Part shown: one piece after another, positions 3,001 through 6,000 of the stretch
How positions within the stretch are numbered: position 1 is the first letter of the stretch
Layout of the letters: the number at the start of each line of letters is the position of its first letter
Source: a virus
Lineage: Duplodnaviria > Heunggongvirae > Uroviricota > Caudoviricetes
DNA length: 26,803 bases
Virus record (IMG/VR): IMGVR_UViG_2548876959_000021
Coordinates: 1-26,803 of that record
Direction: 5' to 3' (one strand)
Made by a program: the position numbers

Positions 3001-6000
3001 ACCTGCCGACAATATGTTCTTGTACACTTTGCCATACGAGGTATTGGCATGAGTATCTATGCCAAAGGTTTGACCAACACCAGCGCCTTGAATGAAGTAT
3101 CGTGCAGCAAATCCGATAATATTGTTATTATATACCTTGAAATTTGAAGCGGTGTGACCTTCGTCGGGTTCAATATCTATACCAGCTAATAGCGTATCAC
3201 CTATGTAGTTTCCATGAATCTCAAACTGCCTAGTATCACTTCCGGCTGCAATACCCATCCTATTGGTTGTAATGATGGTGTTATGCCTTACCTTGAAATT
3301 TTTCGCGTTATAAACCAGGATGCCATCACCACGCTGCATCCCTACACCACCAATATTTTTGATATTACAATTTTGAATTAACAGCCCATCCGTCTGTACA
3401 TCGTAGTTTGCATAATCACCGAACCATATTCCTATGCCGCACTCACCGGATAGCATTGAAATTCCAATATCGTGAACATTCACGCCGTCTATAACGATAT
3501 TGCTGCCACCGTACCCACGAATTCCTCCATCCAGGGTGCCTGTTATATCAACATCAATCACTTTGGCGTTGGAGATGTTAGCCATAAGTATCCCGGATTT
3601 CTCTTGCTGAGTTCCGCCATCAAATTGAAAGTTTAATGACCCGCTATGCATCACTTTATTACTTTTGTGGTTAATAGGTGAGCGAAGTTTTGAAACGAAT
3701 CCGACGCCACCAAGTTTAACGCTAGGAGATTCAGAGTCTAATGCAGCGGATACAGCAGCATCGTTGAACTCTCCATCAATAGCACCCCATCCGCGAATGT
3801 CACCCTCTTCTCTCCACTGCTGAATTTTAATATGCTGATCCATCGATGGGATTAGAAGATATCCATTTGGACCCGCTAGCTCTTGTCTTAATTGGTCAGG
3901 GTCATACTTCAGCACATTAGGAAAATAGAACTGCTGCACACCGTACGCATCATAAACAGCCATAGAATGGCCTTGCACAGTTACGAACTTGGCAATCTGT
4001 CCGTTATATACCGGATATCCAGCAGCATTAATGATGATTGGTTGAGAAACAGGAACGTGAGAGCCATCTTCGTTCTCTACATAAACCTGAATCTGGTTTT
4101 CAGGATTTACCGGGTCCGTGTCAATTTTACCGATATAAATTTTGCCATTGGCTACGGCTTTAAAAGAACGCGCCATAGTGAAGAGTTGCGAAGGCATGCT
4201 TACCACAACATTGGCTGTAATGTCTGTCATTTAATTTGCTCCAGATACAAGGAATCGCCGCAGCGTGGCCACGGTTGGAATTTGTTACATACCGAAACGG
4301 TACGATTGTTGATTTGTACAGTAGGTTTTACGATGCCATTCCACCCATTTGGTGAGGCATTGATGATGTACAGCAAATACGATGAGGCGCAGTTCCACTT
4401 GAGGCTTACGCACGAGTTGCACGCTAAGATTAAGCAGCGTGCAAAAATGAATAACAGGTCTATCAATTCCGAAATTGTGGCTACGATGGAAGAATCACTC
4501 TCCAAACCATCACCTGTAAGCGGGTATCGTGATGAAGAAGAGAGGCTGGCCTCATTAATCTCGGAACGAGTAAAAGAAGTTGCGGCTGATATCCTTAGAA
4601 AAGAAAAAACCCGCGATTAAGCGGGTTTAGTTGGTTAGTTATCAAAAAGTCCGTACGTTTCTTCTTCTTCAGGTGTAAGGGGAAGAATCTCTACTCTATC
4701 TATAGATACCTTTTCAATGTACCCATGAGGTCTACTTAAAATTAAAGCTCTCTCATGCCACAGAACTCCAAGAATGTGATACCTTCCAGCATCGCCTTTT
4801 ACCCTGGCTCTTCCTTTGATTCTTGGCGGCATAATGCCATATTTTTTCTTTGCCATTATGCAACATTACTCCCATGAATCAGGTGTTGTAGTGCTTTAAC
4901 ACCTTCCTCATTGTAGCGGAACGCTTCCACCTGTTTGCTGGAATGCGCAGATTTATCCAGGAAGAACTTCCCGTACTGCTCAGTTTTGAGGTTGTTTGCG
5001 TTAGCAATGCGACCAATCTTGTTGGCCGTTACTCCAAGCTGCTCTGCAACCTCCCCTGCTGAGTAGTAATGCTCTTCTATTGCCGGAAGAGGTATTGCAT
5101 TAAAACCAACGAGCGGGTTGATTATACTTGCTGCCGCTGTCTGCTTTGCCTCCGGCGCAAGATTTGGCATCAGATCGAACAGATTGGTAACAGCTTCAAC
5201 CGTCATTTTCAATGTTCGCGCTTGACGATACTCAACAAGTCCACTCGCTGATTTACCGCTTTTAATGTGCGCTTCCTGCATACTTTCAAGTTTGTCTACA
5301 AGTGTTCGGCGAACTGCTTTAGATTCGCGAGCAGCAACACGAAGCGCCTGCTTGATAGTCATGGAGATAACATCAATGTCAGCCCCGTTTTTCCGACCTA
5401 CACTTTTTGTGTAGGTCTCGCCTTCCAATTCATCCTCAATTTTCTCGATGAATTTGTTGTTACGTACTGATGGCTCTCCACATAACTTGCGAGCTTCATT
5501 AACCATCATCAGAAGACTTTGGCTGTCAATGGTTTTATCCGTGACAACGGATCCGATGTTTGCTACATTCTTAAAAGTCATTAGGCATTCCTTATGTGGT
5601 AGTAAGGGTGTGACATAGGCCGCCAGCAGCACACTGGCGGTTTTCTTTTGCGCCGTCCTGTGCACCAATCAATGAATCCATTCCTCGCCGCGAAGTTTTG
5701 CCAGCATTGGCTGAGCGTTCTTTACGACAAAATTGTTGGTATCAAGATTCTTCATTTCACGAAGAAGTGATTTCTTGGTTTCTTCTGACATGTAGCGAGT
5801 CTCATATGCAATATCGTAAATCCTTCCTGAAAGCTCAGAACCAATTTGCTTCATTCCCGGGTAGATGTGTTTGCACATTTGTTGACTCTTCTCCATCCAC
5901 AATTGTAAGTAGCAGAGATTAACCAGCTCTTCGTCAGTGAACTGTTTTGCAATCGGTGAGCATTCTGCCTGCCGATCCAAAATATCCAGCACCCAGCGGC

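What the first reader, a model, noticed from the sequence alone, without database searches (positions are those of the whole stretch)
5540..5650. Second, paralogous sar-like antisense module at the Bro-N / AntB-like junction
The same architecture recurs one gene downstream. A plus-strand extended -10-like TGCTACATT (5561-5569; compare TGCTACAAT at 6282-6290) lies 10 nt from the start codon of the AntB-like gene, and is followed by a plus-strand terminator (CCGCCAG/CTGGCGG stem, TTTTCTTTT) in the intergenic region. Two near-identical TTGCTACA(A/T)T elements, each just upstream of a minus-strand start codon and each followed by a plus-strand terminator, suggest a duplicated antisense-control module governing both halves of a split antirepressor.
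Basis: partly seen in the sequence, partly recalled or inferred. Interest (0 to 1): 0.5.

Follow-up and report, generated by a model that had tools for sequence, protein, structure and literature searches.

The report
Second sar-like antisense RNA gene
Between two antirepressor genes of a P22-like prophage lies a small, strongly conserved promoter-plus-terminator unit on the opposite strand. It most likely makes a ~73-nt antisense RNA that shuts off translation of the second gene, a previously uncatalogued relative of phage P22's classic sar RNA.

Summary
On the + strand, GTGACA (5541-5546), a 17-bp spacer, TG-extended TACATT (5561-5569) and a 10-bp hairpin with TTTTCTTTT (5617-5649) form one unit. 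It runs antisense across the start codon (5579-5581) and Shine-Dalgarno of the downstream gene antB. It is the only such unit in the 26.8-kb window (0.04 expected).

Comparative data give the main support. In 19 unique relatives found by protein search, all 13 sigma70-critical positions, including a +1 A, are invariant. All 23 other positions between +1 and -35 vary (Fisher 4e-10), and the encoded amino acids change while the critical bases stay. The same design recurs before non-homologous antirepressor N-domains and with four different terminator sequences, always + oriented. Predicted RNAs are 63-78 nt and fold into two hairpins like sar.

Rfam has no match, and I found no paper describing it.

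Modules 1 and 2 are collinearly similar beyond the 9-mer (z about 4), so paralogy is plausible but not proven. The "split antirepressor" idea fails. The upstream gene antA is a complete Bro-N + P22_AR_C protein, and antB is an independent gene related to P1 Ant1.

Verdict: a probable new sar-like cis-antisense sRNA family. No transcript has been shown.

The parts
5541..5546 (+). -35 hexamer GTGACA (5/6 match to TTGACA) of the predicted antisense promoter. It lies in antB codons 12-14.
   Evidence: 17-bp spacing, TG flagged. Invariant in 19 unique relatives. It is TCGACA in SPN3UB-type units.
5561..5569 (+). Extended -10 element TGcTACATT (TG 5561-5562, hexamer 5564-5569). It lies in antB codons 5-7.
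   Evidence: Positions -15, -14, -12, -11, -9 and -7 are invariant while -13, -10 and -8 vary, and the encoded residues change (N/T, V/L, A/T). P22 Psar has the same design, TGcTATACT.
5576..5648 (+). Predicted ~73-nt antisense sRNA. The inferred TSS is A5576, 7 nt after the -10 element, and the 3' end lies in the U-tract.
   Evidence: An A at this position is invariant in all relatives although the 6 nt before it vary. Predicted RNAs in 31 distinct units are 63-78 nt. MFE is -25.1 kcal/mol, z = -2.5. No transcript data exist.
5577..5614 (+). Stem-loop I of the predicted sRNA. It contains the anti-start codon CAU (5579-5581) and the anti-Shine-Dalgarno UUCCUUA (5588-5594).
   Evidence: The 5' GUCA pairs with UGAC just before the terminator, as in sar. 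It folds better on the + strand than on its complement across lineages. Cognate halves pair better than non-cognate halves.
5617..5649 (+). Intrinsic terminator: a 7-bp GC core (5620-5626 / 5634-5640) extendable to 10 bp, a 7-nt loop and the TTTTCTTTT tail.
   Evidence: On the minus strand the hairpin is followed by CCTATGTC, with no U-tract. Relatives carry four different stem sequences, all + oriented, with compensatory pairs.
4856..5581 (-). antB, the target gene: a 241-aa antirepressor-family protein (phrog_1726). Its translation initiation region is fully complementary to the sRNA.
   Evidence: (72-74% identity to part of P1-family Ant1).
5669..6295 (-). antA, the upstream gene: a 208-aa complete Bro-N + P22_AR_C antirepressor-type protein. 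The sRNA terminator lies just after its stop codon.
6281..6365 (+). Module 1, a positional homologue of P22 sar at the arc-antA junction: TGcTACAAT 6281-6289, anti-start CAT 6293-6295, TGACATAG 6321-6328 and a terminator hairpin at about 6327-6361.
   Evidence: (MFE -29.4, z = -4.2). It is not recognised by Rfam sar RF00262, although P22 and SPN3UB are.

Best explanation
The region encodes a cis-antisense small RNA gene of the sar type. A sigma70 promoter (GTGACA, 17 bp, TG-extended TACATT) is embedded in codons 5-14 of antB and fires on the opposite strand at A5576. Transcription runs back across the antB start codon and Shine-Dalgarno sequence and stops at the intrinsic terminator in the antA-antB spacer, giving a ~73-nt, two-hairpin RNA. 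This RNA is perfectly complementary to the antB translation initiation region on the polycistronic Pant -> arc -> antA -> antB mRNA. Pairing with it blocks 30S binding and probably creates an RNase III substrate. AntB synthesis would then be throttled independently of antA, which has its own sar-like RNA (module 1). What the data show: the sequence elements exist, they are conserved at the DNA level as a promoter, a +1 A and an oriented terminator, and they recur in front of unrelated antirepressor N-domains. What is inferred: that the RNA is made, and that it represses translation as sar does in P22.
For: Anatomy. Rarity: one such unit in 26.8 kb against 0.04 expected. DNA-level selection for a promoter was tested in an unbiased set retrieved by protein similarity. 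In its 19 unique sequences, 13 of 13 sigma70-critical positions (+1 A; -7, -9, -11, -12; TG; GTGACA) are invariant and 23 of 23 other positions between them vary (Fisher 4e-10). Third codon positions are invariant at 6 of 6 critical sites against 1 of 18 elsewhere (p = 5e-5). Amino acids change (N/T, V/L, A/T, V/I/S/T) while the critical bases are kept, and the spacer is always 17 bp. The same promoter/terminator architecture precedes non-homologous N-domains: the antB type, Rha type, SPN3UB gp22 type, and a Bro-N type with a different promoter, TTGACT-16-GATAAT. Four unrelated terminator stems are all oriented for the + strand. A negative control supports specificity: of 120 unrelated genomic loci that share the hairpin pattern, only 4 had the full promoter, all homologous modules, three of them in named Enterobacterales. 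Size (63-78 nt) and the two-hairpin fold match sar. Stem-loop I is more stable on the + strand (-7.3 against -3.8 kcal/mol, Wilcoxon 8e-4). Cognate 5'/3' halves pair better than non-cognate halves (-7.7 against -5.3, permutation p < 0.001). P22 Psar has the same TGcTAnAnT design inside the first ant codons. SPN3UB carries both a bona fide Rfam sar and this second unit in one operon.
Against: There is no transcript evidence of any kind. No Rfam family matches, and I found no paper describing it. The -10 hexamer TACATT matches the consensus at only 4 of 6 positions. In the window's variant the anti-SD lies in a stem rather than a loop, and shuffle z-scores for stem-loop I are modest (-0.5 to -2.4). 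The choice of 'critical' positions was partly made after seeing the data (-9 counted, -10/-8/-13 not), although counting the whole hexamer still leaves 13 of 16 invariant against 0 of 20. The sequences are related, so the counts are not independent events. Some relatives outside immI (Stx2a phages, L251-L255) keep the N-I-A peptide but have AATATT, no GACA and only an imperfect hairpin. So part of the peptide may also be under protein-level selection, or the module may decay when it is not needed.
Confidence: 0.7

Rival explanations
1. The promoter and terminator are real, but the main effect is transcriptional rather than RNA pairing. Convergent firing from inside antB collides with or occludes RNA polymerase coming from Pant (transcriptional interference). 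The terminator then simply insulates antA from antisense read-through, and the short RNA is a by-product.
For: The face-to-face arrangement with the Pant operon is evident. The conserved oriented terminator sits immediately after the antA stop codon.
Against: The transcribed segment always spans the start codon and SD, and its length stays in a narrow 63-78 nt range with a sar-like two-hairpin fold. Stem-loop I halves co-vary. Neither feature is needed for pure interference.
Confidence: 0.12
2. There is no antisense gene. The -35/-10 look-alikes are a by-product of a conserved N-terminal peptide (MTxxNVAxxxxVVT). The hairpin acts in the sense mRNA as a stabiliser, a processing site or a translational-coupling structure, or it is merely a conserved recombination joint between mosaic modules.
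For: The hairpin also forms in the sense RNA. Homology breakpoints between phages fall at the hairpin, for example SPN3UB homology starts at window 5619. Stx2a-phage relatives keep N-I-A without a good promoter.
Against: Amino acids at the critical codons change while the promoter bases do not. Synonymous sites are frozen only at sigma70-critical positions, and rare codons (GTA, TTA, GCA) are used invariably. The hairpin always has its U-tract on the + strand, even when the stem sequence is entirely different. G-U pairs make stem-loop I strand-specific. Unrelated N-domains carry the same unit.
Confidence: 0.1
3. The RNA is made, but its main targets are in trans. These could be homologous antB-type mRNAs of superinfecting or co-resident phages (RNA-based heteroimmunity) or host mRNAs, rather than autoregulation of its own operon.
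For: Stem-loop I is hypervariable between phages whereas the terminator is nearly constant, a pattern reminiscent of specificity determinants. The unit is spread over E. coli, Salmonella, Klebsiella, Yersinia, Intestinirhabdus and Rosenbergiella.
Against: Nothing tested here bears on trans activity. Perfect complementarity to its own mRNA makes the cis target the parsimonious one.
Confidence: 0.08

Closest known systems
sar RNA of Salmonella phage P22 (Rfam RF00262; Liao et al. 1987, Wu et al. 1987, Schaefer & McClure 1997, as cited in PMC2629481)
   Same: Both have an extended -10 promoter of the form TGcTAnAnT inside the first codons of an antirepressor gene, firing antisense. Both give an RNA of about 70 nt with a 5' stem-loop that encloses the anti-SD plus an intrinsic terminator in the upstream intergenic spacer. 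Both sit in the immI ('ant moron') operon between the ejection-protein genes and the tailspike gene.
   Different: It targets the second antirepressor-type gene (the antA-antB junction), not the arc-ant junction. It has a good -35 (GTGACA at 17 bp), which Psar lacks. Its terminator sequence is different. The TSS lies inside the coding region, so the RNA covers codons 1-2. It does not score with the sar covariance model even at E <= 10. It coexists with a sar-type unit in the same operon (window; SPN3UB).
c4 RNA of phages P1/P7 (immI) and the related processed CA/CI RNAs of N15/P4
   Same: These are also small RNAs that keep an antirepressor silent by pairing around a ribosome binding site in an immI operon (PMC12197685). 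Residues 14-105 of antB are 72-74% identical to part of P1-family Ant1.
   Different: c4 is processed from the same strand and transcript as its target, and it acts on short complementary boxes upstream of icd/ant. Here the RNA is a primary transcript from the opposite strand with full complementarity.
Other lambdoid cis-antisense RNAs: OOP (cII), sas (P22 sieB), anti-Q/23as
   Same: They are short primary antisense transcripts with their own constitutive-type promoter and an intrinsic terminator, and they overlap a phage regulatory gene (PMC13397905).
   Different: OOP and anti-Q overlap 3' or internal parts of their targets and act through RNase III or termination. sas switches between two start codons. 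None is associated with antirepressor genes or shares sequence with this unit.

Membership tests
sar RNA family (Rfam RF00262) | Scores at or above the family gathering threshold (43 bits) with the covariance model | tested here: not met
   There is no hit at gathering threshold in the window and none at 5576-5649 even at E <= 10. The positive controls scored: P22 97.8 bits and the SPN3UB arc-ant junction 48 bits.
sar RNA family (Rfam RF00262) | Located at the arc-ant junction, antisense to the RBS of the first antirepressor gene | tested here: not met
   Module 2 lies between antA and antB, one gene further downstream. Module 1 (6281-6365) occupies the sar position.
sar RNA family (Rfam RF00262) | ~68-69 nt RNA with a 5' stem-loop enclosing the anti-SD plus a terminator hairpin | tested here: met
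   The predicted RNA is 73 nt with two hairpins. Relatives give 63-78 nt. This is a prediction only.
Cis-encoded antisense sRNA repressing translation initiation | Own promoter on the strand opposite the target, under selection | tested here: met
   GTGACA-17-TGcTACATT. All 13 critical positions are invariant and all 23 others vary.
Cis-encoded antisense sRNA repressing translation initiation | Transcribed segment overlaps the SD and start codon of the target | tested here: met
   The anti-start CAT is at 5579-5581 and the anti-SD TTCCTTA at 5588-5594, both inside 5576-5648. The same holds in all 31 distinct units.
Cis-encoded antisense sRNA repressing translation initiation | The RNA exists and lowers target translation | not testable with these tools
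   This needs northern, dRNA-seq and translational fusions. No published data were found.
Sigma70 extended -10 promoter | TG at -15/-14; T-12, A-11 and T-7 in the hexamer; 16-18 bp to a -35 element; purine at +1 | tested here: met
   All features are present and all are conserved. Promoter activity itself was not tested.
Intrinsic (Rho-independent) terminator | GC-rich stem, short loop and an immediately following U-tract on the transcribed strand only | tested here: met
   The stem is 7-10 bp with a 7-nt loop and a TTTTCTTTT tail on the + strand. The minus strand lacks a U-tract. Orientation is kept with four different stems.
   antA alone has Bro-N + P22_AR_C and aligns to the C-terminal part of P22 Ant. 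antB against P22 Ant gives E = 59. antB occurs behind other upstream genes.

The most novel reading that the evidence does not exclude
The unit is a portable regulatory cassette made of a promoter hidden in a ~14-codon leader peptide, a ~70-nt antisense RNA and a terminator. Recombination has placed it in front of at least three or four unrelated antirepressor N-domains, and it forces a common N-terminal peptide (xxN[V/L/I]Axxxx[V]VT) on them. Its hypervariable stem-loop I, next to a near-constant terminator, would act as an RNA 'immunity code'. Resident prophages could then silence, in trans, the matching antirepressor of incoming or neighbouring phages. That would be a second layer of RNA-based heteroimmunity beside sar in immI regions across Enterobacterales.
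Probability: 0.2. Interest if true: 0.65.

Novelty: new member of a known kind. Interest (0 to 1): 0.5.

Why it matters
P22 immI, with Mnt, Arc, Ant and sar, is a textbook regulatory circuit with one antisense RNA. If this unit is real, many P22-like and lambdoid prophages of E. coli, Salmonella, Klebsiella and other Enterobacterales carry two antirepressor-type genes, each with its own antisense RNA. The second RNA family is absent from Rfam and from genome annotation: 77 of 5426 complete E. coli genomes carry this variant with no ncRNA called. The unit is also an unusually clean case of dual coding. A sigma70 promoter is frozen inside the first 14 codons of a gene while the encoded amino acids drift. 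That makes it a good test bed for overlapping constraints and for how regulatory cassettes move between mosaic phage genes. In practice it gives a directly testable sRNA prediction, with TSS, 3' end and synonymous knock-out mutations all specified.

Tried and rejected
- **Rfam.** I searched the whole window at gathering threshold and 4200-7300 at E <= 10. Nothing overlaps 5576-5649. The weak symR (module 1), Ref84, Trp/Leu-leader and isrK hits are far below threshold and are treated as chance.
- **Genome-contig scan.** I reused the hits as a negative control.
- **MAFFT and RNAalifold on 18 variants.** The 5' domain could not be aligned, so only terminator pairs were scored. I replaced this with per-sequence folds, a strand-asymmetry test and a cognate versus non-cognate pairing test. 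I did not build a covariance model, because the poor 5' alignment would have made it essentially a terminator model.
- **IsrK/IsrJ of Gifsy-1 as an analogue.** Rejected: both lie on the same strand as anrP, and IsrK activates translation through an upstream ORF.
- **Split antirepressor.** Rejected.
- **Internal sense-strand promoter for antB in the spacer.** No promoter-like site was reported on the minus strand between 5582 and 5668.
- **NCBIfam.** It gave no names for any of the four proteins.
- **Full-text search for the exact hairpin and promoter strings.** It found no paper.
- **One script timed out** and was rerun in a faster form.
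Full report
**Context**

The window is the immI ("ant moron") region of a P22-like (Lederbergvirus) prophage, read on the minus strand. The genes are:
- a Mnt-like gene at 6654-6974 (+);
- an Arc-like gene at 6369-6545 (-);
- antA at 5669-6295 (-), 208 aa, Bro-N + P22_AR_C, phrog_245 "anti-repressor Ant";
- antB at 4856-5581 (-), 241 aa, phrog_1726 "anti-repressor", no Pfam hit;
- a 73-aa ORF that overlaps the antB stop codon by 1 nt;
- a second Arc/Mnt-like gene at 4363-4620 (+);
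- the tailspike gene at 2293-4230 (-).

The closest isolated phage is Escherichia phage JEP4, 98% identical over 4218-6375. The 5480-5700 segment occurs in 77 of 5426 complete E. coli genomes, including strain HS, and no RNA gene is annotated there.

**Observation**

- TGCTACATT at 5561-5569;
- the antB start codon as CAT at 5579-5581;
- the stem CCGCCAG (5620-5626) / CTGGCGG (5634-5640);
- the tail TTTTCTTTT at 5641-5649.

The consensus scan adds a -35 GTGACA (5541-5546) at 17 bp. It ranks the 5617-5643 hairpin (10 pairs) as the best terminator-like site of the region. On the minus strand the same hairpin has no U-tract.

A promoter-like match alone means nothing here (5 found, 5.1 expected). 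The composite does: an extended -10 followed 20-85 nt later by a perfect GC-rich hairpin and T-tail occurs exactly once in the 26.8-kb window on both strands, against 0.04 expected.

**What P22 sar looks like**

In P22 the Rfam sar match starts at the G immediately after the ant start codon. It lies seven bases downstream of TGcTATACT, an extended -10 element inside the first ant codons, and it ends at a hairpin in the arc-ant spacer.

Module 1 of the window (TGcTACAAT, then ATTCAT, then a hairpin) is the positional homologue. Rfam does not recognise it.

Module 2 has the same logic one gene downstream. The inferred +1 is A5576, and the RNA would be ~73 nt. It carries the anti-start codon, the anti-SD UUCCUUA (5588-5594), a 5' stem-loop closed by GUCA/UGAC, and then the terminator. 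MFE is -25.1 kcal/mol, z = -2.5.

**Comparative evidence, the core of the case**

A scan of IMG/VR for the terminator gave 90 contigs with 21 distinct upstream contexts. A search independent of the DNA motif, by protein similarity to antB, gave 80 more loci.

A composite detector run over all loci found 31 distinct units, every one of them this module. Predicted RNA lengths are 63-78 nt.

The protein-retrieved set has 19 unique sequences for the first 25 codons of the antB type (a twentieth string, L235, came from a mis-called upstream ATG and was left out). The pattern in them is all-or-none:
- The 13 positions that matter to sigma70 are invariant. These are the +1 A, positions -7, -9, -11 and -12, the TG at -14/-15, and all six bases of GTGACA.
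- All 23 other positions between +1 and the -35 element vary (Fisher 4e-10).
- Among third codon positions of codons 2-25, 6 of 6 promoter-critical sites are invariant, against 1 of 18 others (p = 5e-5).

The encoded amino acids change while the bases stay:
- Codon 5 is AAT or ACT (N or T).
- Codon 6 is GTA or TTA (V or L); ATA (I) occurs in another lineage.
- Codon 7 is GCA or ACA (A or T).
- The codon before GTC-AC is GTT, ATT, TCT or ACT (V, I, S or T).

The variable positions of the -10 region are exactly -13, -10 and -8, the least informative ones in E. coli promoters (established knowledge). The spacer is always 17 bp although its sequence is almost fully replaced.

This pattern is what selection on an antisense promoter predicts. 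Selection on a peptide does not predict it. One caveat: counting -9 as critical was decided after seeing the data. If the whole hexamer, the TGn and the -35 are treated as critical, 13 of 16 are still invariant against 0 of 20.

**Portability**

The same unit precedes proteins whose N-domains are not detectably homologous:
- the antB type;
- the Rha type (MSSREIA..GKRH; L017, L018);
- the SPN3UB gp22 type, which gives BLASTP E = 1 against antB and carries the promoter in an N-terminal extension (TCGACA-17-TGcTACATT);
- a Bro-N type (L045) with a different good promoter, TTGACT-16-GATAAT, in front of the same terminator.

The gene on the other side of the terminator also varies, with at least five types.

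Relatives carry four unrelated terminator stems: GCCGCCAG.., AACCGCCAGTCC.., GGCCAGTGG.. and AGCCAATAG... All have the U-tract on the antisense strand, which gives compensatory pairs in the RNAalifold table.

SPN3UB has both a bona fide Rfam sar (48 bits) at arc-ant and this second unit at ant-gp22.

My over-loose hairpin scan of GTDB genomes returned 120 mostly unrelated hairpins and served as a control. Only four had the full promoter within 110 nt upstream. All four are homologous modules: Yersinia massiliensis, Intestinirhabdus alba, Rosenbergiella nectarea, and one contig labelled Chryseobacterium.

**RNA structure**

Each variant folds into stem-loop I plus the terminator, like P22 sar.

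Stem-loop I is more stable on the + strand than on its complement in 14 of 18 cases. The means are -7.3 against -3.8 kcal/mol (Wilcoxon 8e-4), and validated sar shows the same asymmetry.

Cognate 5' and 3' halves pair better than non-cognate combinations, -7.7 against -5.3 kcal/mol (permutation p < 0.001).

These are supportive but soft. Shuffle z-scores are modest, the lineages are related, and the 5' domain could not be aligned well enough for a formal covariation test.

**Paralogy with module 1**

The two 110-nt regions share a collinear series of motifs: GAT-TTTGCTACA-T, CAT, TTAG, TTCCTT and TGACATAG, followed by a GC hairpin.

The local alignment score is 28 against 17.6 +/- 2.9 in shuffles (p about 0.005). 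The global score is 68.5 against 45.6 +/- 5.5 (0 of 2000 as high).

Because most shared motifs are functionally required, common descent is plausible but unproven.

**Split antirepressor**

This idea is rejected, for four reasons:
- antA contains both Bro-N and the P22_AR_C domain, and it aligns to residues 206-274 of P22 Ant.
- antB has no similarity to P22 Ant.
- antB is found behind other genes.
- Residues 14-105 of antB are 72-74% identical to residues of about 112-203 of P1-family Ant1.

These are two complete, tandem antirepressor-family genes.

**Counter-evidence and limits**

Nothing here shows that the RNA exists.

antB relatives located elsewhere, in the Stx2a phages (~62% identical) and in L251-L255 (92% identical), keep N-I-A. 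They read TGCAATATT (-12 is A), have no GACA at -35, and have only an imperfect hairpin. Either the module decays outside immI, or part of the peptide is itself selected.

Neither Rfam nor the searchable literature describes a second sar-like RNA. Reviews and a 2026 P22 sRNA catalogue list only sar, sas, oop and 23as, plus six same-strand species. Older subscription literature could not be searched.

**Verdict**

The finding is a well-supported prediction of a second, sar-like cis-antisense sRNA gene that controls the second antirepressor-type gene of the immI operon. It belongs to a widespread, uncatalogued family. It is a new member of a known kind of regulator, not a new mechanism.

I put confidence that a selected antisense promoter/terminator unit exists at about 0.85. 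Confidence that it works as a sar-like translational repressor of antB is about 0.65-0.7.

Noticed in passing
window 6281-6365: Module 1 sits exactly where P22 sar sits (the arc-antA junction) and has the Psar-type TGcTACAAT, yet Rfam sar RF00262 does not detect it even at E <= 10. P22 (97.8 bits) and SPN3UB (48 bits) are detected. The Rfam family looks too narrow for the diversity of sar-type RNAs.
   Followed up: partly
window 6564-6617: Between the divergent arc-like and mnt-like genes lies a Pant-like promoter on the minus strand (TTGACA 6611-6606, 16 bp, TG-extended TAAATT). A perfect 16-bp palindrome, TTGGTTCTAGAACCAA (6570-6585), overlaps it and is presumably the Arc/Mnt-type operator.
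   Followed up: no
window 4363-4632: A second Arc/Mnt-family gene (85 aa, + strand) converges on the ant operon. The two share a hairpin at 4607-4628 whose T-run is good for the minus-strand operon. So this immI region has three ribbon-helix-helix genes instead of P22's two.
   Followed up: no
window 4635-4856: A 73-aa ORF (phrog_4977, function unknown) starts 1 nt inside the antB stop codon. This suggests translational coupling, so anything that represses antB translation would probably also lower this protein.
   Followed up: no
window 4859-5581; L298 1201-1476: Residues 14-105 of antB are 72-74% identical to an internal segment (about residues 112-203) of P1-family Ant1. This links a P22-type immI region to the P1 immI antirepressor. 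The homology begins right after the ~13-codon leader that holds the antisense promoter.
   Followed up: partly
L295 (E. coli HS, NC_009800) 801-2602: In E. coli HS the antB homologue is annotated as truncated ('missing C-terminus') next to an IS3-family transposase, yet the antisense module and the antA gene are retained at 97.7% identity.
   Followed up: no
L297 1440-1530; L296 1440-1530; L251-L255: antB homologues here, in Stx2a-converting phages (~62% identical, early-region context) and in L251-L255 (92% identical), keep the N-I-A peptide. They read TGCAATATT, lack the -35 GACA, and have only an imperfect hairpin with a weak T-run. This may be a decayed or weaker version of the module.
   Followed up: partly
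L122 (CACSKA010000001.1, labelled Chryseobacterium sp. 18061): A contig labelled as Chryseobacterium carries an SPN3UB-type module (TCGACA-17-TGCTACATT, then GCCGCCAG hairpin) typical of Enterobacterales prophages. This may be a mislabelled or contaminated assembly.
   Followed up: no
window 5611-5618 and 6321-6328; L004 about 2468-2474: The 8-mer TGACATAG lies immediately 5' of the terminator in both modules of the window. P22 and SPN3UB sar have (C/T)TGACA at the same place. In each case it forms the 3' half of the helix that closes stem-loop I.
   Followed up: partly
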